From: a virus
Taxonomy: Duplodnaviria; Heunggongvirae; Uroviricota; Caudoviricetes
DNA length: 33,280 nt
Direction: 5' to 3' (one strand)
IMG/VR virus record: IMGVR_UViG_2700989274_000006
Span: 1 to 33,280 of that record
Shown here: positions 8,909 to 33,280 of the stretch, one piece after another
How the letters are laid out: each line of letters begins with the position of its first letter
How positions within the stretch are numbered: position 1 is the first letter of the stretch
Made by a program: the position numbers and the translations under genes
Notes under the pieces: model-generated
What the model was told of the DNA's origin: nothing
The model's database searches: none
The model's input: only the letters and a program-made list of their open reading frames with translations

Positions 8909-11712
8909 GCATTAGTTCTCACTTTACGCTTCTTGCCTTTGGCCGGTGCAGCAGAAGCGGCCATCTTTATATAAAGATCAAATAGCTTTTCAAGCCGCTC
9001 TGTATCATTCTTAAAGCGACGGCCGATGTAGATGCGCTCCAGTACTTCATCATTGCGATCATGCGCAGCCCGCAGATCAGTAGGCATGTTAGCAGGATCG
9101 TATAGGTCCGCGATGGTCGCGGGAAAATGATGCTCACGCGCCAGAAGTATGTCCTCCGCGCAGCGTGTGAGGTCAGCCTTGTTTTTTTCTGTGAGTTTTG
9201 GTACTGGGAAGGTGTTCCAGCCGAGGGTGTTAGAGTAGCGGTAGCGTGTTTCCAATTTTCCGCAGATGGTGGCGATCCAAACCAGGTGTAGACGAGATGC
9301 AATGAGCGCAAGATTCCAGAGCGGAGCGTCGTAGAGAGCAAAGGCGAGGTTACTGACTACCGAATGATTATCAATCAGTCCAACAGGAAGATACTCGCGC
9401 CCTTCCGATGAAACCCCCGGTAGAATCAGCGTGTGCTTGCCACCGTGATACATTTCGCGAAACTGATGAGCCCGTGATGCTAACTCATTCGTACCAGCAT
9501 CTTTACTTTTGAGCCGCATTTCCCGAACGCCATCAATCCGACCCCGAATAGACGCAATCTCCAAAGCTTGCGGCAATTTTACATCAGGGATCCAGAGGCA
9601 CTTACGTACTACTCCGCGAATAAACTCGGCAGAACCATAGATGCGCCGAAGAAATGTCTCTTCATCCTGCTTGCTCAAACCGAGCGAAACCGCGTCATCC
9701 GCCGATAACAAAAGATTTCCCCCATCGACGGGCATGTTGCCAAAAGACATATCCGGCAGACCCGATATGCTCTTGCGCTGGCCCTCGACTACAACATCCT
9801 CACCAACACTCAGATAGGGCGTGATGTTTGTCGCCTCGCGTACAGTAGTTTGGCCATTGCGGTCCAAGTCGTAAAGTAGCCTTGTCTTACTCACATCCGT
9901 AGATAGGCCGACGATAGCGACTGTTACACCCGCGTTGTGTGCAGCAAGGTTCGTCCATTTGAAGCTGGAGTGCGCGAAGCGAATGTGGGAGCCACATTTG
10001 AAAATTGCTGGCCACAGGATAGGAACAATTCGGCCTTGACAGATAGAGTTGGTGCTAACAAAAGCCGAATCCGTTGGTGTGGCTTGCGCGTAGGCAGCAG
10101 CTTTCATGAACCAACCACCAACATAATCGATTTGTTTAGACGAAATACCATAAGGTTCAAATACCGAAGCCAAATCCGCTTTCTGCTCTTTAGTCTGCGT
10201 TTGGCTACCTTTGTAAGGTGGGTTACCACAGATGTATGTCTCCCCACCTTCGTTCTGAAAGCCAATCTCTGCTTGACCGAGAGGCGTCTCAAAGAGGTTA
10301 TCTGCCTGCAACTTCACGCCAATTCCGGACGGAGGGCAAACGCTCAACCAATCAATCCGCAATGCGTTGCCACATGTAATCCAATTATCATTACGCAGAG
10401 GAAGAAACTCGGCCAGTGCAAGTTTTAGTCCCCGGTACACCACATCGCACTGATACTCAGCAATAACTAGCGCGAGACGGGCAATCTCCGCAGGGAAATC
10501 TCGTATTTCGATCCCGCGAAAGTTGGTAAGAGGGATGTCAGAGGCATTATCCATCTCGCCACGTCGTCGATTAATCTCGGCCTCGATGGCTCGCATTTCC
10601 TTGTACGCAATCACTAAGAAGTTGCCAGATCCACATGCTGGGTCGAATACGCGGATTCGGGCCATACGCTTGCGCAGATTGAGCAGCATGCGCGGATTGT
10701 CACCGGCTTCATCCAGTTTCGCCCGCAGTTCGTCGAGGAATAGTGGGTTAAGCACCTTGAGTATATTGGGGACACTAGTGTAATGCATTCCCAACTCACC
10801 ACGCTCTTCGTCTTCGGTAATGGCCTGAATCATCGAGCCGAATATGTCTGGGTTGATTTTGGTCCAATCCAGATTGCCAACATGTAGAAGATAGGATCGC
10901 GCAATACGGCTGAAGCGCGGTACCTCCTCACTTCCCGAGAAAAGAGCGCCGTTTACATAAGGAAACTCAGCAGCCCAACGCGGGATACCGACAACACTTC
11001 GCTCATCGCGTGGGGTGTTCATTGCACGAAACAACGTGGCGATGACCTCGTGCAAATTAGAAGCGTCGCGCTCACTCATCTGCGCAATAGTGTCAGTAAA
11101 GCGCCCCTTGCCTATAAATATGTCAGTGTCTTCGGCGAAAAAGCAGAAAATTAGACGCGCCATGAACTTGTTCATGTCATGACGACGCCCCGAAGTACCC
11201 CATTCAGGATTGTCTTTTAACAGTTCGACGTACAGGCGGTTCAAACGGCTAGTAGCACGGATGTCAAAGGCGTCTTCGCTGATCTGCCGAACAGTGCTGA
11301 TACCTGCCAATGGCAAAAAGAAGCCGAAGTGATCGGGAAAGTCTTTAAAGGCACAAGCCACAGTCTGACCACTGTTGAGGTCCTCGGCTTCAAAGTATTT
11401 GCCGTCCGTGGCAAGGATGAATTTCGCCTTGGCCTTGCCTGTTGCCGGGCTGGCCTTAAGTGCAGCCAGCATCTGTGTGACTTGGCCCCCTTCACTGGCC
11501 AGAATGTGGATGTTGTTTGTCTGAAGAACACCACCCAAGTCGGACTTATTCGATGCCCCGGCGCGCAGACGTTTGATGGTCGTTTCCTTGTTACCAAAGG
11601 CTTCAAGAAAAGCATAAGGAAACTCTATAGGATCAAAGGGTTGTTCCGCAAGATCCGTGATGGCTTGCTCAATTTCTACGGCGTTCATTTGCGTACAGTT
11701 CTCCATTGGCAT
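8905..11712 (-). CDS. MmeI-family (type IIG/IIL-like, YeeA-like) N6-adenine DNA methyltransferase, apparently without endonuclease motif
   Basis: 935 aa; SAM motif I FDPACGSGNFLV, catalytic motif IV GNPPY; further MmeI-family blocks MARLIFCFFAEDTDIF, LGMHYTSVPNILKVLNPLFLDEL; no PD-(D/E)xK seen in the N-terminal ~120 aa. Confidence 0.85.
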   Translation of the reverse strand: MPMENCTQMNAVEIEQAITDLAEQPFDPIEFPYAFLEAFGNKETTIKRLRAGASNKSDLGGVLQTNNIHILASEGGQVTQMLAALKASPATGKAKAKFILATDGKYFEAEDLNSGQTVACAFKDFPDHFGFFLPLAGISTVRQISEDAFDIRATSRLNRLYVELLKDNPEWGTSGRRHDMNKFMARLIFCFFAEDTDIFIGKGRFTDTIAQMSERDASNLHEVIATLFRAMNTPRDERSVVGIPRWAAEFPYVNGALFSGSEEVPRFSRIARSYLLHVGNLDWTKINPDIFGSMIQAITEDEERGELGMHYTSVPNILKVLNPLFLDELRAKLDEAGDNPRMLLNLRKRMARIRVFDPACGSGNFLVIAYKEMRAIEAEINRRRGEMDNASDIPLTNFRGIEIRDFPAEIARLALVIAEYQCDVVYRGLKLALAEFLPLRNDNWITCGNALRIDWLSVCPPSGIGVKLQADNLFETPLGQAEIGFQNEGGETYICGNPPYKGSQTQTKEQKADLASVFEPYGISSKQIDYVGGWFMKAAAYAQATPTDSAFVSTNSICQGRIVPILWPAIFKCGSHIRFAHSSFKWTNLAAHNAGVTVAIVGLSTDVSKTRLLYDLDRNGQTTVREATNITPYLSVGEDVVVEGQRKSISGLPDMSFGNMPVDGGNLLLSADDAVSLGLSKQDEETFLRRIYGSAEFIRGVVRKCLWIPDVKLPQALEIASIRGRIDGVREMRLKSKDAGTNELASRAHQFREMYHGGKHTLILPGVSSEGREYLPVGLIDNHSVVSNLAFALYDAPLWNLALIASRLHLVWIATICGKLETRYRYSNTLGWNTFPVPKLTEKNKADLTRCAEDILLAREHHFPATIADLYDPANMPTDLRAAHDRNDEVLERIYIGRRFKNDTERLEKLFDLYIKMAASAAPAKGKKRKVRTNA

Positions 11713-14252: not shown

Positions 14253-14262
14253 NNNNNNNNNN
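14253..14262. other. Assembly gap (10 N)
   Basis: Run of n characters; interrupts a plus-strand ORF that begins MNKTDGLQALEKP at 14146. Confidence 0.99.
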
Positions 14263-22676: not shown

Positions 22677-24648
22677 TTCCTGGTTCAGGATGCAGGCTGG
22701 TCACCAGAGTGACGCGGATATTTATATTTATGACGAGATTGGTTTCTGGGGTGTTACAGCGAAGCAGTTTATCAGTGATCTGAATGCACTGGGCGATATC
22801 ACCCACATTAATCTCCATATTAATTCACCGGGTGGCGATGTCTTTGAAGGCATCGCCATTTTTAATGCGCTGAAAACACATGGTGCGTCCATTACCGTTT
22901 ATGTCGACGGTGTGGCGGCGTCAATGGCGTCGGTCATTGCGATGGTGGGAAACCCGGTCATTATGCCGGAAAACACCTTCATGATGATTCATAAACCATT
23001 TGGCTTTACGGGCGGTGATGCGGAGGACATGCGCACCTATGCCGACCTGCTCGATAAAGTTGAGGCGGTTCTGTTACCCGCTTATGCACAGAAAACCGGG
23101 AAAACCACCGATGAAATTGCTGCCATGCTGGCGGATGAGACCTGGATGTCCGGTGCCGAATGTCTGGCACATGGATTTGCTGATCAGGTAACGCCAGCCG
23201 TTAAGGCAATGGCATGTATTCAGTCAAAACGTACAGAGGAATTTAAAAAGATGCCGGAATCCATTCGAAACATGATTACTCCGCCACGCAACAGTGCTCC
23301 ACGCGTACAGGATAATGAACCTGAAGCCTCCCGGACGCCAGTGCAGGCAGCAGCACCCGTGGTGGATGAAAACAGCATCCGTGCGCAGGTACTGGCAGAG
23401 CAAAAAGCGCGTGTAAACGGTATTAATGATCTGTTTGCCATGTTTGGCGGGCGTTATCAGACGCTGCAGGCTCAGTGTCTTGCCGATCCTGAATGTTCGC
23501 TGGAGCAGGCCCGCGAAAAGCTGTTGAACGAGATGGGGCGCGAGTCCACGCCATCCAATAAAAATACCCCGGCTCATATTTATGCCGGTAACGGTAATTT
23601 TGTGGGGGACGGGATCCGCCAGGCGCTGATGGCGCGTGCCGGATTTGAAAAAACCGAACGTGATAATGTCTACAACGGGATGACCCTGCGTGAATATGCC
23701 CGTATGTCACTGACTGAACGGGGTATTGGGGTTTCCAGTTATAACCCGATGCAGATGGTCGGTGCGGCGTTCACACACAGTACGTCTGACTTCGGTAATA
23801 TTCTGCTGGATGTTGCGAACAAAGCCATTCTGCAGGGCTGGGAAGATGCCCCTGAAACCTATGAACAGTGGACGCGGAAAGGTCAGTTGTCTGATTTTAA
23901 AATTGCCCATCGTGTGGGTATGGGTGGCTTCAGTGCTCTGCGTCAGGTGCGTGAAGGGGCGGAATATAAATACGTCACCACCGGAGATAAACAGGCCACT
24001 ATTGCACTGGCGACCTATGGCGAGCTGTTCAGTATCACCCGTCAGGCCATTATCAATGATGATCTGAATATGCTGACCGATGTCCCGATGAAACTGGGCC
24101 GTGCGGCGAAATCCACTATTGCCGATCTGGTTTATGCCATTCTGACGTCTAACCCGAAAATCTCCACAGATAATGTAAGTCTGTTCGATAAAGCGAAACA
24201 TGCAAACGTACTGGAGAGCGCTGCAATGGACGTGGCATCGCTGGATAAAGCCCGCCAGTTGATGCGCGTTCAGAAAGAGGGGGAGCGTCATCTGAATATT
24301 CGTCCTGCGTTCGTACTGGTACCGACGGCGATGGAGTCTGTTGCTAACCAGGTCATTCGCTCCTCAAGTGTCAAGGGGGCTGACATTAACGCCGGTATTA
24401 TTAACCCGGTGAAAGATTTTGCGACCGTTATTGCAGAGCCTCGTCTTGATGATAACAGCCAGACCACCTTCTACCTGGCTGCGTCAAAAGGCTCCGATAC
24501 GATTGAAGTGGCTTATCTCAACGGTGTGGATACGCCATATATTGATCAGATGGAGGGCTTCAGTGTGGATGGCGTGACAACGAAAGTGCGTATTGACGCC
24601 GGTGTCGCGCCAGTTGATCACCGCGGTCTGGTGAAATGTACGGCGTAA
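22639..24648 (+). CDS. Prohead protease (ClpP/S49-like) fused to major capsid protein
   Basis: N-terminal protease motifs HINSPGGDVFEGIAIFNAL and GVAASMASVIAM; C-terminal ~330 aa resembles Mu gpT-type major head subunits; start uncertain (22639 or 22690). Confidence 0.7.
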   Translation: MSRSTPTTSPKNNSWFRMQAGHQSDADIYIYDEIGFWGVTAKQFISDLNALGDITHINLHINSPGGDVFEGIAIFNALKTHGASITVYVDGVAASMASVIAMVGNPVIMPENTFMMIHKPFGFTGGDAEDMRTYADLLDKVEAVLLPAYAQKTGKTTDEIAAMLADETWMSGAECLAHGFADQVTPAVKAMACIQSKRTEEFKKMPESIRNMITPPRNSAPRVQDNEPEASRTPVQAAAPVVDENSIRAQVLAEQKARVNGINDLFAMFGGRYQTLQAQCLADPECSLEQAREKLLNEMGRESTPSNKNTPAHIYAGNGNFVGDGIRQALMARAGFEKTERDNVYNGMTLREYARMSLTERGIGVSSYNPMQMVGAAFTHSTSDFGNILLDVANKAILQGWEDAPETYEQWTRKGQLSDFKIAHRVGMGGFSALRQVREGAEYKYVTTGDKQATIALATYGELFSITRQAIINDDLNMLTDVPMKLGRAAKSTIADLVYAILTSNPKISTDNVSLFDKAKHANVLESAAMDVASLDKARQLMRVQKEGERHLNIRPAFVLVPTAMESVANQVIRSSSVKGADINAGIINPVKDFATVIAEPRLDDNSQTTFYLAASKGSDTIEVAYLNGVDTPYIDQMEGFSVDGVTTKVRIDAGVAPVDHRGLVKCTA

Positions 24649-26319: not shown

Positions 26320-27069
26320 GTGGCAATGACCACACCAAATCCACTGGCAAAAACGAAAGGTGCGGGAACGACGTTCTGGATGTACACCGGCAAGGGCGAT
26401 GCGTTTGCGAACCCTTTATCGGACACTGACTGGCTGCGTCTTGCGATGGTGAAGGATCTGCAACCTGGCGAAATGACCGCTGATGCAGAAGATGACACTT
26501 ATCTCGATGATGAAGATGCAGACTGGAAAACGACAACCCAGGGGCAGAAATCCGTCGGTGATACTTCGGCGACGCTGGCCTGGCGTCCGGGTGACAGCGG
26601 ACAGAAAAAACTGGTTCAGTTGTTCGACTCCGGTGAAGTCTGCGCGTTTCGTATCAAATATCCCAACGGCACTGTTGATGTTTTCCGTGGCTGGCTGAGC
26701 TCACTGGGTAAAACCATTGCCTCAAAAGACGTGATGACCCACACAGTGAAAATCAGCGGTGTGGGGCGTCCGTATCTGGCAGAGGAAGGCACTGAAACAG
26801 TGAGCGTTACCGGGCTGACGGTGGCACCGGCATCTGCCAGTGTAAAAGTGGGAGCAACCACCACGCTGACCTTTACAGTAAAACCTGACGGAGCCAGTGA
26901 CAAAGCGATCAGTGTGCATTCGACAGATCCACAGACTGCCACGGTGACCCTGAACGGGCTTGTGGCCACGGTGAAAGGCGTGAAGCAGGGCAGTGTCAGC
27001 ATTGTGGGCATGACTTCTGACGGCGATTTTGTGGCAGTGGCTGCGGTGGCTGTCAGCGCCGCAGGTTAA
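26320..27069 (+). CDS. V: Major tail protein V with C-terminal Ig-like domain
   Basis: Strong similarity to lambda gpV: KGAGTT, ANPLSD, YLDDEDADW, QGQKS.GDTS.TLAW, PNGTVDVFRGW. Confidence 0.9.
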   Translation: MAMTTPNPLAKTKGAGTTFWMYTGKGDAFANPLSDTDWLRLAMVKDLQPGEMTADAEDDTYLDDEDADWKTTTQGQKSVGDTSATLAWRPGDSGQKKLVQLFDSGEVCAFRIKYPNGTVDVFRGWLSSLGKTIASKDVMTHTVKISGVGRPYLAEEGTETVSVTGLTVAPASASVKVGATTTLTFTVKPDGASDKAISVHSTDPQTATVTLNGLVATVKGVKQGSVSIVGMTSDGDFVAVAAVAVSAAG

Positions 27070-27089
27070 CAGGACGATACTCATCATTT

Positions 27090-27113
27090 GCCCCGGTTAT
27101 CCGGGGCTTTTTT
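27090..27113 (+). terminator. Strong intrinsic terminator between V and G
   Basis: GCCCCGG-TTAT-CCGGGGC perfect 7-bp stem followed by TTTTTT. Confidence 0.7.
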
Positions 27114-27126
27114 GCAGGTGGAGAAC

Positions 27127-27516
27127 ATGATGTTTCTGAAACAGGGCACGTTTAATTATGAAAAGCAGTCCGTGGTGCTCAGTGAGCTGTCCGGGCTGCA
27201 GAGAATTGAATATCTGGCGTTTGTTCAGCAGCGAACGGCAAAGTTTGATGCCGAAGAGGGAGAACTGCCGGAGGCTGAACGACAGATTGCTTTTCTGCGG
27301 ATGGGGATGGATATCAATGCCTGGCTGGTTTCCCGCTCACTGTGGAATGCGGAACAGTCTCAGGATGTTGAGACGCTTTGCGCATCCGTTATTACAACAT
27401 GGTCGTATGATGCCCTGGGAGCGGGGGCGGAGATGGTTCTGTCGCTGAGCGGTATGGGAGCCATTGAGAATGCCGGGGATTTGGAGCATGAGGTGCTGAC
27501 GCCGGAAAAGTCCTGA
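27127..27516 (+). CDS. G: Tail assembly chaperone G
   Basis: Similarity to lambda gpG (MFLK..., VLSELSGLQRIEYLA, SLW); GGTGGAG RBS; start is at an internal Met of the longer ORF. Confidence 0.8.
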   Translation: MMFLKQGTFNYEKQSVVLSELSGLQRIEYLAFVQQRTAKFDAEEGELPEAERQIAFLRMGMDINAWLVSRSLWNAEQSQDVETLCASVITTWSYDALGAGAEMVLSLSGMGAIENAGDLEHEVLTPEKS

Positions 27517-27854
27517 CGCGGGAAATGCAGTTTGTCATGCGGCTTGCCCGGGAGTTCAGGCGGGCAGACTGGCGGCGGATGCTGTCGGAAATGTCGGCCA
27601 CTGAGCTTGGTGAGTGGGGCGATTATTTCCGGATGCAGAGCTTCAGTGATGTGTGGATGGATGCGCAGTTTGCCTCGCTGAAGGCATTGATCGTGAGAAT
27701 GGTGTCCGGCAGCAGTGATGCTGCGGTGGCTGATTTCAGCCTTTTACCGGAAGAGAACGGGATACCGGAGCGAACGGACGAAGAACTGATGCATCTTGGG
27801 GAAGGTATTTCCGGAGGTGTGCGTTATGGACCAGATAGCCAACCTGGTCATTGA
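27504..27854 (+). CDS. T: T segment of the G-T tail assembly chaperone, reached by -1 programmed frameshift
   Basis: The -1 frame is open from 27492 and encodes a gpT-like sequence (RADWRRMLSEMSATELGEWGDYF ... GISGGVRYG); candidate slip site GGAAAAG at 27504-27510 inside the 22-nt overlap. Confidence 0.75.
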   Translation, partial: GKVLTREMQFVMRLAREFRRADWRRMLSEMSATELGEWGDYFRMQSFSDVWMDAQFASLKALIVRMVSGSSDAAVADFSLLPEENGIPERTDEELMHLGEGISGGVRYGPDSQPGH

Positions 27855-30800
27855 TTTGGGGATTGATGCGGCAGAGTTTAAAAATGAAATTCCCCGTATC
27901 AAAAACCTTCTGAATGGTGCAGCCAGCGATGCAGAACGGTCTTCTGCCCGTATGCAGCGTTTTATGGAGCGTCAGACTCAGGCCGCCCGGCAGACAACGC
28001 AGGCGGCGTCTTCGGCTGCAACAGCCGCATCCGTCCATGCGCAGACGGTGGAGAAGAACGCACAGGCTCATGAACGCATGGCCCGCGAGGTGGAGAAAAC
28101 CCGCCAGCGTATGGAGGCACTGAGCCAGAAAATGCGCGAGGAACAGGCGCAGGCCATGGCTCTGGCGGAGGCTCAGGATAAAGCAGCTGCTGCGTTTTAT
28201 CGTCAGATTGACAGTGTGAAACAGGCCAGTGCGGGGCTGCAGGAATTACAGCGTATTCAGCAGCAGATCCGACAGGCCAGAAACAGTGGCGGGATTGGTC
28301 AGCAGGATTATCTGGCGCTGATTTCTGAGGTTACGGCGAAAACCCGTGTTCTTACGCAGGCTGAGGAAGAGGCTACCCGACAGAAAGTGGCGTTTATCCG
28401 TCAGCTTAAAGAGCAGGCAACCCGCCAGAATCTTTCTTCTTCTGAGTTGCTTCGTGCTAAGGCTGCCCAGCTGGGGGTAAGCAGTGCTGCAGAAGTGTAT
28501 ATCCGCAAAATGGAGCAGGCAGGAAAAGCCACGCATTCGCTGGGTCTGAAAAGTGCAGCGGCCCGCCAGGAGATAGGCGTTCTGATAGGTGAACTGGCCC
28601 GCGGCAATTTAGGGGCGCTGAGGGGATCCGGGATAACGCTGGCTAACCGTGCCGGATGGATAGACACTCTGATGTCACCGAAAGGCATGATGCTTGGCGG
28701 GGTTATTGGCGGTATTGCCGCGTCCGTCTATGGTCTGGGTAAAGCCTGGTATGACGGTCAGAAGGAGGGGGAAGAATTTAACCGCCAGTTGTCGCTGACG
28801 GGGCATTATGCCGGAGTCACTGCCGGGCAGCTGTGGACGCTCAGTCGTGCTATTTCCGGGAATGGTATCACGCAACATGCTGCAGCCGGTGTGCTGGCTC
28901 AGGTGGTGGGGAGTGGTGCATTTCGTGGAAACGATATCGGTATGGTGGCGAGAGCTGCCGCACAGATGGAGCGATCGGTTGGCCAGTCGGTCAGCGATAC
29001 CATAAATCAGTTTAAGCGGCTGAAGGATGATCCTGTAAATGCCGCGAAGGCTCTGGACAATGAGCTGCATTTTCTTACTGCCACTCAGCTTGAGCAGATA
29101 CGTGTCCTTGGGGATCAGGGACGGTCCAGTGATGCTGCACGGATAGCCATGTCTGCACTGGCAGAGGAAACCGGTCGGCGTACTGCGGATATTGATAATA
29201 ACCTCAATGCGCTTGGCAGTACGCTGAAGTATCTGTCTGATTTATGGAGTCGTTTCTGGGATGCGGCCATGAATATTGGTCGTGAAGACTCGCTGGATGA
29301 ACAGATTGCCGCTTTACAGGAGAAAGTGTCGCGGGCGAAAAGACTCCCCTGGACGGCATCATCTTCTCAGGTTGAATACGATCAGCAGCGTCTTAACGAT
29401 CTTCAGGAGAAAAAACGCCAGAAGGATTTGCAGGATGCAAAAGAGCAGGCAGAGCGGAATTATCAGGAGCAACAGAAACGACGTAATGCTGAAAATGCTG
29501 CACTGAACCGGATGAATGAAACGGAAGCAGCACGACATCAGCGTGAAATTGCGCGTATTAATGCCATGCAGTACGCCGATCAGGCTGTCAGGGATGCAGC
29601 GATACAACGTGAAAATGAACGTTACGAGAAAGCCCTGGCATCCGGTAAGAAAAAAACACGCGAAACCCGTAATGATGAGGCCACCCGGTTATTGCTGCAG
29701 TACAGTCAGCAACAGGCACAGGTGGAAGGACAGATTGCTGCTGCAAGACAGTCAGCAGGCATTGCCACTGAAAAGATGACAGAAGCGCATAAACAGCTTC
29801 TGGCTCTGCAGCAGCGCATCAGCGATCTGGACGGGAAAAAACTGACGGCAGATGAAAAGAGTGTGCTGGCCCGTAAAGATGAACTGATTCAGGCACTGAC
29901 GCTGCTGGATGTAAAACAGCAGGAGCTTCAGAAACAGACGGCACTCAACGATCTGAAGAAAAAAACAATTCAGCTGACCAGTCAACTGGCTGAAGAAGAG
30001 CTCGCTCAGCGTCAGCAACATGACCTGGATATCGCCACGGTGGGTATGGGTGATCAGCAGCGGCAGCGATATCAGGTACAACTGAGTCTTCGCCAGAAAT
30101 ACCAGCAACAGCTGGAGCAGTTGAGGCGGGATAGTGAGCAGAAAGGGACATATAACACGGATGACTACAGAAAGGCCGAGCAGGCGCTGACGGAGAGCCT
30201 GAACCGACAACTGAATGAGAATCGCCGTTACTGGCAACAGCTTGAAGTTGTGCAGGGTAACTGGAAAAACGGAGTCCTGCGTGCATTTCAGGATTTTACC
30301 GTGGATGCAGACAATACGGCAGGAACAGCAGAACAGGTGTTCTCGTCAGCCTTCAGCAACATGGGAAATGGCCTGGCAACTTTTGTCACTACCGGCAAAC
30401 TCAACTTCAAATCCTTCACCTCTTCGGTGCTGTCAGATATGGCGAAAATCCTGGCGCAGGCAACCATGATGAAATCGATAAAAGGGATTGGCAGTGTACT
30501 GGGATTTGATCTCAGCAGCCTTTCCCTGAATGCCAATGGGGGGATTTATCAGTCTGCTGATTTGAGTCGTTACAGTGGCACGGTGGTTAACCGTCCGACG
30601 TTTTTTGCTTTTGCAAAAGGCGCGGGTGTGATGGGGGAAGCGGGACCTGAAGCCATTCTGCCACTGCGTCGTGGTGCTGACGGTAAGCTGGGGGTTGTGG
30701 CGGATATTGGTGGTTCAGGTATGGCGATGTTTGCCCCGCAGTACAACATCGAGATCAATAACGATGGCACGAACGGGCAGATAGGTCCGGCTGCCCTGAA

Positions 30801-30891
30801 GGTGGTTTATGACCTTGGGAAAAAAGCGGCAGCGGACTTTATGCAACAGCAGGCCCGTGATGGTGGTCGGTTAAGTGGAGCATATCGGTAA
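27826..30891 (+). CDS. H: Tail tape measure protein (lambda H-like)
   Basis: ~1021 aa; GGAGGTG RBS; long Q/A/E/R-rich coiled-coil region; conserved C-terminal tape-measure block (GGIYQSADLSRYSGTVVNRPTFFAFAKGAGVMGEAGPEAILPLRRGADGKLGV); position after G-T. Confidence 0.9.
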   Translation: MDQIANLVIDLGIDAAEFKNEIPRIKNLLNGAASDAERSSARMQRFMERQTQAARQTTQAASSAATAASVHAQTVEKNAQAHERMAREVEKTRQRMEALSQKMREEQAQAMALAEAQDKAAAAFYRQIDSVKQASAGLQELQRIQQQIRQARNSGGIGQQDYLALISEVTAKTRVLTQAEEEATRQKVAFIRQLKEQATRQNLSSSELLRAKAAQLGVSSAAEVYIRKMEQAGKATHSLGLKSAAARQEIGVLIGELARGNLGALRGSGITLANRAGWIDTLMSPKGMMLGGVIGGIAASVYGLGKAWYDGQKEGEEFNRQLSLTGHYAGVTAGQLWTLSRAISGNGITQHAAAGVLAQVVGSGAFRGNDIGMVARAAAQMERSVGQSVSDTINQFKRLKDDPVNAAKALDNELHFLTATQLEQIRVLGDQGRSSDAARIAMSALAEETGRRTADIDNNLNALGSTLKYLSDLWSRFWDAAMNIGREDSLDEQIAALQEKVSRAKRLPWTASSSQVEYDQQRLNDLQEKKRQKDLQDAKEQAERNYQEQQKRRNAENAALNRMNETEAARHQREIARINAMQYADQAVRDAAIQRENERYEKALASGKKKTRETRNDEATRLLLQYSQQQAQVEGQIAAARQSAGIATEKMTEAHKQLLALQQRISDLDGKKLTADEKSVLARKDELIQALTLLDVKQQELQKQTALNDLKKKTIQLTSQLAEEELAQRQQHDLDIATVGMGDQQRQRYQVQLSLRQKYQQQLEQLRRDSEQKGTYNTDDYRKAEQALTESLNRQLNENRRYWQQLEVVQGNWKNGVLRAFQDFTVDADNTAGTAEQVFSSAFSNMGNGLATFVTTGKLNFKSFTSSVLSDMAKILAQATMMKSIKGIGSVLGFDLSSLSLNANGGIYQSADLSRYSGTVVNRPTFFAFAKGAGVMGEAGPEAILPLRRGADGKLGVVADIGGSGMAMFAPQYNIEINNDGTNGQIGPAALKVVYDLGKKAAADFMQQQARDGGRLSGAYR

Positions 30892-31229: not shown

Positions 31230-31594
31230 ATGCAGGATATTCCACAGGAAACACATCATGAGACGACACGCCTCACTCAGTCAGCCCAGGTGGTGCTCTG
31301 GGAAATCGATCTGACAGTGGTCGGTGGAGAACGTTATTTTTTCTGTAATGAGCAGAACGAAAAAGGTGAGCCGATCACCTGGCAGGGGCGACAGTATCAG
31401 GCGTATCCCATTCAGGGGACGGGATTTGAACTGAACGGCAAGGGCAGTGCTGCCCGTCCGACACTGACGGTTTCTAACCTGCACGGCATGGTCACCGCGA
31501 TGGCGGAAGACCTGCAGAGTCTGGTCGGAGGAACGGTGGTCCGGCGTAAGGTTTACGCCCGTTTTCTGGATGCGGTGAACTTCGTCAACGGAAN
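31230..31594 (+). CDS. L: Minor tail protein L (3' end truncated by assembly gap)
   Basis: Near-identity to the lambda gpL N-terminus (MQDI.QET, VVLWEIDLT.VGGERYFFCNEQNEKGEP.TWQGRQYQ.YPIQG.GFELNGKG, VVRRKVYARFLDAVNFVNG); the ORF runs into the N run at 31595. Confidence 0.9.
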
Positions 31595-31604
31595 NNNNNN
31601 NNNC
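31595..31604. other. Assembly gap (10 N)
   Basis: Run of n characters; the sequence after it is unrelated to phage tail genes. Confidence 0.99.
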
Positions 31605-32662: not shown

Positions 32663-33280
32663 TCAAATAATTTCATTCCTTTTTAATACTTCTTGTAATT
32701 TCGGTAACTGACATACAGCATCAGCGATCGCGCTGATATTCTGCGCATTATCCTGAAACCATTCATGCCCCGGCCCCCATGTGCGCATGGTGCAGAGATA
32801 ACAGTCCACCAGCGTTAGTTGCTCACCAAAGGCATAAGGTTCAGCGGTCAATTGTGAATTCAGCCAGATATAAAGTGATTTGCGATATTCAATTACATTC
32901 TTCTTTAACTGTTCAGGTGCGTCAGATGCCCAACGCTCAGGGTAATCGGCGAAAGTGAATGTTGGATAGACATTAGCAACCAGCCAGACCAATAGCCGTT
33001 GAAACTGCTGACGTTCGGCGCGCCCAACCGGTGGCGCAAGGTCCGGGCGACGATCGAGAACCATAAATGCAATCGCCGCTGTCTCCGTCATAATCTCGTC
33101 ATTTTCCAGCGCCAGTGTCGGAACCTGACACAACGGGTTCAGGGTTTTCAATAACTCGCGTGAAGCTCCCTCGTGGTCAAAACCACTGACATCAACGAAC
33201 TGATAAGGAATATCAGCCAGTGTTAGCATCAGCTCACTGATTGTAGAGCCCCATCCGGGTACGCCATACACCTTAATCAT
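32663..33280 (-). CDS. yncG: Glutathione S-transferase family protein (YncG-like)
   Basis: 205 aa complete ORF whose start is the last codon of the window; thioredoxin-like GST N-domain (MIKVYGVPGWGSTISELMLTLADIPYQFVDV ... LCQVPTLAL) and a helical C-domain; the sequence matches my recollection of E. coli YncG. Confidence 0.7.
   Translation of the reverse strand: MIKVYGVPGWGSTISELMLTLADIPYQFVDVSGFDHEGASRELLKTLNPLCQVPTLALENDEIMTETAAIAFMVLDRRPDLAPPVGRAERQQFQRLLVWLVANVYPTFTFADYPERWASDAPEQLKKNVIEYRKSLYIWLNSQLTAEPYAFGEQLTLVDCYLCTMRTWGPGHEWFQDNAQNISAIADAVCQLPKLQEVLKRNEII

What the first reader, a model, noticed from the sequence alone, without database searches (positions are those of the whole stretch)
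27492..27516. G-T programmed -1 frameshift with a non-canonical slippery heptamer (GGAAAAG)
The gpT-like frame is -1 relative to G and open only from 27492; G stops at 27514-27516, so the shift must occur within 22 nt. The only shifty sequence there is G-GAA-AAG (27504-27510), whereas lambda uses G-GGA-AAG. Here the P-site codon is GAA (Glu), which would re-pair to GGA with a central mismatch, while the A-site Lys AAG to AAA slip is standard. This predicts a lower or differently tuned G to GT ratio.
Basis: partly seen in the sequence, partly recalled or inferred. Interest (0 to 1): 0.45.

Follow-up and report, generated by a model that had tools for sequence, protein, structure and literature searches.

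The report
Lambda-type G/GT tail frameshift site
This is the ordinary ribosomal frameshift site that lets a lambda-like E. coli prophage make two tail-assembly chaperones (G and GT) from one message. Its GGAAAAG "slippery" sequence looks odd next to lambda's GGGAAAG, but it is already annotated in phage N15 and is the commonest version in this phage family.

Summary
G (27130..27516, Pfam Phage_TAC_2) stops at TGA 27514-16. The -1 frame (Pfam Phage_tail_T) is closed by TGA 27489-91 and open from 27492 to 27854. G_GAA_AAG (27504-10) is the only in-phase heptamer in the overlap that lets the A-site tRNA re-pair.

The -1 frameshift interpretation is well supported by comparison:
- The heptamer sits at exactly the position of lambda's proven G_GGA_AAG.
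- T-frame protein conservation starts right at the junction.
- The variable codon position switches from the G frame to the -1 frame there.
- ATG 27525, used by RefSeq as the T start, has no Shine-Dalgarno sequence and is not conserved.

It is not novel. The N15 GenBank record marks GGAAAAG as the "slippery sequence for -1 translational frameshift", and the Gifsy-1/-2 records call T a frameshift product. The same 801 nt occur in 1846 of 5426 complete E. coli genomes and in the phage isolates mEp460, Ayreon and Tritos. In my survey GGAAAAG occupies 18 of 32 GT protein clusters, against 4 for GGGAAAG.

The first G is kept across four different preceding codons, which favours tandem slippage with a tRNA-Glu U35·G re-pairing. 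I found no conserved stimulatory structure. The predicted lower G:GT ratio remains untested.

The parts
26320..27069 (+). Major tail protein V homologue with a C-terminal Big_2 domain (upstream neighbour)
   Evidence: PF16461 E=2.7e-66, PF02368 E=1.9e-11
27090..27113 (+). Terminator-like GC hairpin plus T-run between V and G
   Evidence: the same position is annotated as a terminator in Ayreon, mEp460 and N15
27130..27516 (+). Gene G, tail assembly chaperone (128 aa; alternative ATG at 27127); zero-frame product
   Evidence: PF06894 E=1.8e-39; RefSeq 'phage tail assembly chaperone G'; SD GGAG 27120-23
27489..27491 (+). TGA closing the -1 (T) frame upstream; sets the 5' limit for the shift
27490..27495 (+). 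GAGGUG, a perfect 6-nt complement to the 16S rRNA 3' end; aligned spacing of about 11 nt to the heptamer (dnaX: 10). A possible but non-conserved stimulator
   Evidence: Duplex dG -9.3 kcal/mol, top 1.4% of G-ORF 9-mers. Position 27494 is polymorphic, and the motif is absent or displaced in Gifsy, Fels and other relatives
27504..27510 (+). Slippery heptamer G_GAA_AAG: P-site GAA (Glu) to GGA, A-site AAG (Lys) to AAA
   Evidence: positional homologue of lambda G_GGA_AAG; annotated as the slip site in N15; invariant in 61 close relatives; 18 of 32 GT clusters
27514..27516 (+). G stop codon TGA; 3' limit for the shift
27510..27854 (+). T segment read in the -1 frame after the slip (114 aa, VLTREMQFVM...GH, stop TGA 27852-54). 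GT fusion = 27130..27510 + 27510..27851, 241 aa, junction ...LTPEK|VLTRE...
   Evidence: PF06223 E=5e-15, phrog_39 E=8e-43; the fused-type family phrog_32165 matches both halves; codon-phase switch
27826..30891 (+). Tape measure protein H homologue (downstream neighbour; strong SD GGAGGTG)
   Evidence: PF06791, PF09718; aSD duplex -13.4 kcal/mol

Best explanation
Positions 27504-27510 are the programmed -1 ribosomal frameshift site of the lambda-type tail assembly chaperone pair. Most ribosomes read G to its stop at 27514-16. A minority slip back one base on G_GAA_AAG and continue in the T frame, making a 241-aa GT fusion (...TPEK|VLTRE...). By analogy with lambda, G and the G part of GT coat the tape measure protein, and the T part recruits the major tail protein V. 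The most likely mechanism is tandem slippage. A-site tRNA-Lys(mnm5s2UUU) moves from AAG to the better-paired AAA. P-site tRNA-Glu(mnm5s2UUC) moves from GAA to GGA, keeping G1:C36 and A3:U34 with a U35·G wobble-type pair in the middle. No conserved RNA stimulator is needed; in this sub-family an upstream SD-like GAGGUG may help. What is shown: gene identity, frames, positional homology with lambda's site, conservation of the heptamer and of its first G, and the switch of coding frame at the site. What is inferred: that GT is actually made, its amount, and whether both tRNAs re-pair. I put about 0.9 on the shift occurring at this heptamer and about 0.6 on the tandem detail.
For: - Gene identity: G and T families, with V-G-T-H synteny.
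- Slip position: only one in-phase slip-competent heptamer lies in the 25-nt overlap.
- Homology with lambda: anchored alignment of 18 diverged loci puts G_GAA_AAG or G_GGA_AAG at the identical position. Upstream G tails are unalignable, and T-frame protein is conserved from the first post-slip codon (VLTRE/VLNRE/ALTRE/VFDGE).
- Existing annotation: the N15 record annotates this heptamer as the slip site, and the Gifsy-1/-2 records call T a frameshift product.
- Unbiased surveys anchored on a T motif: viral contigs gave 49 GGAAAAG, 48 GGGAAAG and 8 AAAAAAG. Metagenomes gave 40 GGAAAAG and 59 GGGAAAG. Pooled 80%-identity clusters were 18 GGAAAAG, 4 GGGAAAG and 3 AAAAAAG.
- First G conserved: it is kept at a four-fold-degenerate third position in CCG, GCG, GTG and ACG, in all 18 GGAAAAG clusters (the related L195 has A_GAA_AAG). 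Background G frequency is about 0.46.
- Phase analysis on 61 unique relatives: variable sites at G-frame codon positions 1/2/3 are 23/16/34 upstream and 18/34/16 downstream.
- No independent T start: ATG 27525 has no SD (-3.5 against -13.4 kcal/mol for H) and is Leu or Val in relatives.
- Viability: the same region is in the isolated phages mEp460, Ayreon and Tritos and in 1846 of 5426 complete E. coli genomes.
- Precedent: G_GA-type P-site re-pairing is an accepted intermediate class (review PMC5009743).
Against: There is no direct evidence of GT protein or of the frameshift rate for this heptamer. In a reconstituted E. coli system G GAA AAG gave mainly 0-frame product and was used as the 'unfavourable for slippage' mRNA (PMC6924986). 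An A_AAG tetramer without a stimulator is near background (about 0.15%) in vivo (PMC4066793). I found no conserved downstream structure: z = 0.25 and -1.3, consensus -3.9 kcal/mol, no Rfam hit. The SD-like element is not conserved. Rare relatives with A_GAA_AAG, C_GCA_AAG or GCA_AAA_TAG show that P-site re-pairing is not strictly required.
Confidence: 0.85

Rival explanations
1. Same frameshift and same product, but by single-tRNA slippage. Only tRNA-Lys re-pairs (AAG to AAA), either in the A site or as peptidyl-tRNA in the P site while the UCC A site is empty. tRNA-Glu does not contribute, so the operative motif is the GAA_AAG hexamer or the A_AAG tetramer.
For: A_AAG (or A_AAA) is the only element shared by every variant at this position, including A_GAA_AAG (L195), C_GCA_AAG (L231) and GCA_AAA_TAG (L202). 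NNA_AAG hexamer frameshifting is established in E. coli (review PMC5009743). Peng et al. regard GAA to GGA as a second-position mismatch.
Against: The first G of the heptamer is conserved in all 18 GGAAAAG clusters through four different preceding codons, at a synonymous site that the -1 frame does not translate. Known hexamer or tetramer sites need a strong downstream stimulator, and none is conserved here.
Confidence: 0.3
2. There is no frameshift. T is translated on its own from ATG 27525, as RefSeq and most phage records annotate it (109 aa).
For: An ATG exists at 27525. RefSeq, mEp460 and Tritos annotate a separate T CDS from it. The fused GT sequence is absent from a 15-billion protein collection.
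Against: There is no SD: the best aSD duplex is -3.5 kcal/mol, and GGGAA abuts the ATG. The ATG is CTG, CTT or GTG in Gifsy-1/-2, Fels-1, N15, lambda and others. T-frame conservation begins 5 codons upstream, at the heptamer. In lambda T is made only as GT (PMC5009743). Ayreon annotators chose a different, later start, which shows these starts are arbitrary.
Confidence: 0.05
3. The heptamer is a decayed lambda site (G_GGA_AAG mutated G to A) in a defective prophage, and GT is no longer made.
For: A single transition separates the two heptamers. The window's prophage block is bounded by N-runs and looks incomplete.
Against: The identical site is present in plaque-forming phages (mEp460, Ayreon, Tritos, N15). 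It is conserved in 18 protein clusters on both major branches of the GT tree. T remains under purifying selection in the -1 frame.
Confidence: 0.02
4. RNA polymerase slippage on the A-run, rather than ribosome slippage, produces an mRNA with one base fewer or more that fuses G to T.
For: The heptamer contains a short A-run.
Against: The run is only 4 A. From general knowledge, productive transcriptional slippage in bacteria needs about 7-9 or more identical bases. The conserved G_GRA_AAG phase and the terminal G (AAG, not AAA) are hallmarks of tRNA-Lys slippage.
Confidence: 0.01

Closest known systems
Bacteriophage lambda G/GT -1 frameshift (G_GGA_AAG; Levin, Hendrix & Casjens 1993; Xu, Hendrix & Duda 2004, 2013, 2014, as cited in PMC5009743)
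   Same: Homologous G and T proteins (34-36% identity), the same V-G-T-H gene order, T in the -1 frame with no start of its own, and a heptamer at the exactly homologous position with the same A-site A_AAG.
   Different: The P-site codon is GAA (Glu) rather than GGA (Gly), so re-pairing has a U35·G at the middle position instead of a third-position wobble. The junction dipeptide is Glu-Lys, not Gly-Lys. G stops 1 codon after the site rather than 5. T is 114 aa rather than 144.
Phage N15 genes 14/15 (GenBank AF064539: misc_feature 'slippery sequence for -1 translational frameshift')
   Same: The annotated slippery sequence is GGAAAAG in phase G_GAA_AAG (GCG GAA AAG CCC), at the same position of a homologous G/T pair.
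   Different: Only about 36% protein identity to the window's GT; the preceding codon is GCG rather than CCG; G continues 5 codons past the site. As far as I could find, the annotation is by inference, not experiment.
Gifsy-1, Gifsy-2 and Fels-1 prophages of Salmonella LT2
   Same: 67-70% nt identity, an identical ACG/ACA CCG GAA AAG YCC TGA overlap, and T annotated as 'part of ... gpG by translational frameshifting'.
   Different: Different host; upstream G tail sequence and SD-like elements differ.
Non-canonical G_GAN_NNN sites of RNA viruses (insect-specific flaviviruses, dianthoviruses, umbraviruses, mesoniviruses; review PMC5009743)
   Same: The P-site tRNA re-pairs from GAN to GGA, the same first-codon geometry.
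   Different: These are eukaryotic ribosomes with a U-rich A-site codon and strong downstream RNA structures.
Single-tRNA NNA_AAG sites (IS1222 G_CGA_AAG, B. subtilis cdd A_CGA_AAG; Licznar et al. 2003 via PMC5009743) and dnaX A_AAA_AAG
   Same: They rely on E. coli tRNA-Lys slipping from AAG to AAA. dnaX uses an SD-like element 10 nt upstream, comparable to GAGGUG here.
   Different: Those sites depend on pseudoknot or stem-loop stimulators, and no conserved one exists here. The SD-like element here is not conserved.

Membership tests
Lambda-type G/GT tail assembly chaperone frameshift cassette | Two overlapping ORFs between the major tail protein gene and the tape measure gene | tested here: met
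   V 26320-27069, G 27130-27516, T frame 27492-27854, H 27826-30891
Lambda-type G/GT tail assembly chaperone frameshift cassette | Sequence homology to gpG and gpT | tested here: met
   PF06894 E=1.8e-39; PF06223 E=5e-15; phrog_42, phrog_39 and the fused-type phrog_32165; tblastn to lambda 35.8% over 91%
Lambda-type G/GT tail assembly chaperone frameshift cassette | The downstream ORF is in the -1 frame and lacks its own conserved start and RBS | tested here: met
Lambda-type G/GT tail assembly chaperone frameshift cassette | A slippery sequence in the overlap at the position homologous to lambda's | tested here: met
   Anchored alignment of 18 loci; surveys
Lambda-type G/GT tail assembly chaperone frameshift cassette | GT fusion made at a few percent of G and required for tail assembly | not testable with these tools
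   Needs a reporter, immunoblot, MS or genetics
Canonical X_XXY_YYZ tandem-slippage heptamer | XXX: three identical bases allowing cognate or third-position-wobble P-site re-pairing | tested here: not met
   G_GA is not XXX; re-pairing GAA to GGA changes the middle base pair (A:U to G·U)
Canonical X_XXY_YYZ tandem-slippage heptamer | YYYZ allowing cognate A-site re-pairing (A_AAG, the best in E. coli) | tested here: met
   AAG to AAA; A_AAG ranks highest among tetramers (PMC4066793)
Single-tRNA hexanucleotide (NNA_AAG) frameshift sites | In-phase A_AAG | tested here: met
Single-tRNA hexanucleotide (NNA_AAG) frameshift sites | A strong downstream stimulatory structure 5-9 nt after the motif | tested here: not met
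   z = 0.25 (60 nt) and -1.3 (90 nt); consensus fold -3.9 kcal/mol with little covariation; no Rfam match
dnaX-type stimulated -1 frameshift | An SD-like sequence about 10-14 nt upstream of the heptamer | tested here: inconclusive
   GAGGUG 27490-95, -9.3 kcal/mol, aligned spacing 11 nt. But it is polymorphic (27494) and not conserved in relatives

The most novel reading that the evidence does not exclude
G_GAA_AAG, not lambda's G_GGA_AAG, is the ancestral and dominant slip site of enterobacterial lambda-type G/GT cassettes. It reaches a lambda-like, assembly-competent GT level in vivo without any RNA stimulator, even though it is treated as 'non-slippery' in vitro. Both slipping tRNAs (Glu and Lys) carry mnm5s2U34, so GT output in this large prophage family would be doubly sensitive to the host's tRNA thiolation state (the Tus/MnmA versus Isc sulfur competition shown for lambda in PMC3296357). 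That would provide a host-physiology or defence handle on tail assembly.
Probability: 0.2. Interest if true: 0.5.

Novelty: already known. Interest (0 to 1): 0.22.

Why it matters
There are three mostly practical reasons it matters.
- Annotation: in this very common prophage family the GT fusion is never annotated. It is absent from a 15-billion protein set, and RefSeq starts T at a non-conserved ATG. Pipelines that look only for X_XXY_YYZ will miss the site.
- Frameshift rules: the most widespread natural G/T heptamer in this family is one that biochemists use as a poorly slippery control. Measuring it in vivo would calibrate how much a P-site middle-position G·U costs, a base-pair change not covered by the published thermodynamic model (PMC6787027).
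- Ratio tuning: if its rate differs from lambda's roughly 4%, that bears on how strictly the G:GT ratio must be tuned for tail assembly.

Tried and rejected
- Downstream stimulator: folding 60-130 nt after the heptamer gave z = 0.25, -1.3 and -2.2. The only local stem starts 0 nt after the site. The consensus fold of 10 diverged GGAAAAG loci is -3.9 kcal/mol, so I rejected a conserved structure.
- Rfam scan of 27000-28000: nothing relevant.
- Upstream SD-like stimulator as a family feature: strong in the window (GAGGUG) but not conserved in position or strength. The acidic G tail makes GAGG/AGGA motifs easy to get by chance. I kept it only as a local possibility.
- Independent T initiation: rejected.
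- Literature: full-text searches for GGAAAAG with 'frameshift' or 'slippery', and for N15 or Gifsy tail frameshift. These found only the in-vitro control use (PMC6924986) and no paper on the phage site. One search was an uninformative search.
- Papers not held in the library: Xu et al. 2004, 2013 and 2014, and Licznar 2003. I therefore could not check whether GGAAAAG is tabulated or measured there.
- PRFect supplements: no listing. Its text does define a 'twofour' motif class and discusses GAA to GGA re-pairing through G:U.
- Bock et al. 2019: the model has no parameter for middle-position changes.
- Exact look-up of the fused GT protein: not found.

Full report
**What is there.** The window's 14.3-31.6 kb block is the late region of a lambdoid E. 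coli prophage. In order it carries lysozyme, Rz-like, small and large terminase, lambda-family portal, a ClpP-capsid fusion, decoration protein, Z, U, V, G, T, H, M and L.
- G reads ...GAG GTG CTG ACG CCG GAA AAG TCC TGA and stops at 27514-16.
- The -1 frame is closed by TGA at 27489-91 and is then open to 27854.
- G matches Pfam Phage_TAC_2 (E=1.8e-39). The -1 ORF matches Phage_tail_T (E=5e-15). The PHROG family phrog_32165, whose single profile spans both a G-like and a T-like region, matches both halves.
- Of the seven in-phase heptamer positions in the 25-nt overlap, only 27504-27510, G_GAA_AAG, lets the A-site tRNA re-pair cognately.

The heptamer alone is not enriched in the window (8 copies against 4.9 expected). 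What makes it significant is its phase, position and conservation.

**Where it comes from.** The 801 nt around the site are 98-100% identical to phages phi458, Ayreon, mEp460, cdtI and Tritos. They occur in 1846 of 5426 complete E. coli genomes. RefSeq annotates 'tail assembly chaperone G' and a separate 'tail assembly protein T' starting at ATG 27525. The fused GT sequence is not in a 15-billion protein collection, whereas G and T separately are each seen on at least 1000 contigs.

**Comparative test of the slip site.** I anchored 18 diverged loci on the heptamer: E. coli variants, Gifsy-1/-2, Fels-1, Citrobacter, Superficieibacter, Atlantibacter, Pluralibacter, Phytobacter, Serratia, Symbiopectobacterium, E. 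albertii and lambda.
- Upstream, the acidic G tails are unalignable.
- At one fixed position, every locus has NNG GAA AAG or NNG GGA AAG.
- From the first post-slip codon the -1 frame protein is conserved (VLTREMQFVMRLAREF / VLNRELAFVMRLAREF / VFDGELSFALKLAREM...).

So G_GAA_AAG is the positional homologue of lambda's experimentally established G_GGA_AAG. The window's ATG 27525 is CTG, CTT or GTG in relatives and has no Shine-Dalgarno sequence (best anti-SD duplex -3.5 kcal/mol, against -13.4 for H). Independent initiation of T is therefore not credible.

Among 61 unique close relatives the heptamer is invariant, and 27495-27541 contains a single variable site. The most variable codon position switches from G-frame position 3 upstream (23/16/34) to G-frame position 2, which is position 3 of the -1 frame, downstream (18/34/16).

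**How common is this heptamer?** To avoid bias I scanned for a motif inside T (TTTG-N8-CTNGC-N4-GA-N13-GACTGGCG) and read the seven bases 27 nt upstream of each hit.
- Viral contigs (109 loci): 49 GGAAAAG, 48 GGGAAAG, 8 AAAAAAG and 4 others.
- Metagenomes (102 genuine G/T loci): 40 GGAAAAG, 59 GGGAAAG and 1 GGAAAAA.
- Pooled and clustered at 80% GT identity (32 clusters, a few of them not real G/T): 18 GGAAAAG, 4 GGGAAAG and 3 AAAAAAG.
- A neighbour-joining tree of the clusters from the first (pre-metagenome) survey puts GGAAAAG on both major branches and GGGAAAG in two separate clades.

Even so, GGAAAAG is clearly not an oddity. In terms of diversity it is the majority state, and lambda's canonical site is the minority.

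**Already known.** The N15 GenBank record carries a misc_feature, 'slippery sequence for -1 translational frameshift', at 10027-10033. That sequence is GGAAAAG in phase G_GAA_AAG. The Gifsy-1 and Gifsy-2 records describe T as part of a frameshift product. The Atkins et al. review lists G_GA-type first codons as accepted intermediates between hexamer and heptamer sites. PRFect defines a 'twofour' motif class and discusses GAA to GGA re-pairing through G:U.

**Mechanism.**
- *A site.* E. coli has a single tRNA-Lys(mnm5s2UUU) that pairs better with AAA than with AAG. A_AAG is the most shift-prone tetramer.
- *P site.* tRNA-Glu(mnm5s2UUC) moving from GAA to GGA keeps G:C36 and A:U34 and replaces the middle A:U35 with G·U35.
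- *Evidence that the P-site tRNA re-pairs.* The first G of the heptamer is a four-fold-degenerate third position and is not translated in the -1 frame. It is nevertheless G in all 18 GGAAAAG clusters, through four different codons (CCG, GCG, GTG, ACG); one related locus (L195) has A_GAA_AAG instead. The background G frequency is about 0.46. Treating clusters as independent gives P of about 1e-6; with only 8 deep lineages it is about 2e-3.
- *Evidence that re-pairing is not essential.* Rare relatives carry A_GAA_AAG, C_GCA_AAG or GCA_AAA_TAG. Single-tRNA slippage therefore remains a live variant, which I weight at about 0.3.

All these routes give the same junction peptide, TPEK|VLTR, so mass spectrometry alone cannot separate them. 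A synonymous change of G27504 in a reporter can.

**Stimulators.** I found no conserved downstream structure. The window has GAGGUG at 27490-95, a perfect 6-nt anti-SD complement (-9.3 kcal/mol, top 1.4% of 9-mers in G). Its aligned spacing is about 11 nt, close to dnaX's 10. However, 27494 is polymorphic and the element is not conserved in other lineages. I list it as a possible local enhancer only.

**Efficiency.**
- In a reconstituted system G GAA AAG gave mainly 0-frame product, while G GGA AAG shifted readily (PMC6924986).
- A_AAG without a stimulator is near background in vivo (PMC4066793).
- The site is retained in plaque-forming phages and across 18 clusters, which implies the output is sufficient for tail assembly.
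- The published thermodynamic model has no parameter for a middle-position change in the P site.

Both slipping tRNAs carry s2U34. In lambda, loss of this thiolation raises G/T frameshifting and impairs infection (PMC3296357). That makes a testable, speculative link for this family.

**Verdict.** The feature is an ordinary and very common member of the lambda-type G/GT frameshift cassettes, and its heptamer has already been annotated in N15. Interest is low. The residual value is an annotation gap and an unmeasured in-vivo efficiency.

Noticed in passing
window 14253-14262 and 31594-31603: Two runs of exactly 10 N bracket the prophage late-gene block. gpL (PF05100) is cut at 31593 after 121 aa, and host-like sequence with a GST-like gene (32663-33280, minus strand) follows. 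These look like scaffold joins, so the prophage's apparent truncation after L (no K, I, J) is probably an assembly artefact.
   Followed up: partly
window 27090-27113: There is a GC-rich hairpin (GCCCCGG-TTAT-CCGGGGC) plus a T-run between V and G. The same spot is annotated as a rho-independent terminator in Ayreon, mEp460 and N15. It could lower G/T/H transcript levels relative to V.
   Followed up: partly
window 27525 (RefSeq start of T) and the Ayreon record (L001 792-1055): Public records start T at different, non-conserved internal ATGs. The fused GT protein of this family is absent from a 15-billion protein collection, while G and T are each on at least 1000 contigs. This is a systematic annotation gap.
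   Followed up: yes
L006 (lambda) 717-806: The 90 nt after lambda's own G_GGA_AAG fold better than shuffles (z = -2.5, 3 of 200 shuffles as good). An 8-bp outer stem begins 7 nt after the heptamer (its first paired base is the 8th). I did not check whether this is conserved or functional.
   Followed up: no
L025-L037 (genome contigs): Lambda-identical G/T sequence turns up in assemblies of unrelated taxa (Kitasatospora, Neobacillus, Oceanobacillus, Pseudomonas, Shewanella, Chromatium, Leeuwenhoekiella and others), mostly on low-coverage contigs. This is almost certainly lambda DNA contamination. L007, labelled a Bacillota MAG, carries a 99% identical E. coli prophage G.
   Followed up: no
L158, L167, L226, L236, L239; L202, L204, L231, L195, L365: Other heptamers occur at the homologous G/T position. 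A_AAA_AAG occurs in a clade next to lambda. Rare forms are A_GAA_AAG, C_GCA_AAG, GCA_AAA_TAG and G_GAA_AAA_TAG, the last two with the stop codon immediately 3'. L204 has an in-phase G_GAA_AAG three codons further upstream.
   Followed up: partly
window 22735-24648: A single ORF fuses a ClpP-type protease domain to the major capsid protein (PF00574 + PF25209), as in the Gifsy and mEp460-type head modules.
   Followed up: no
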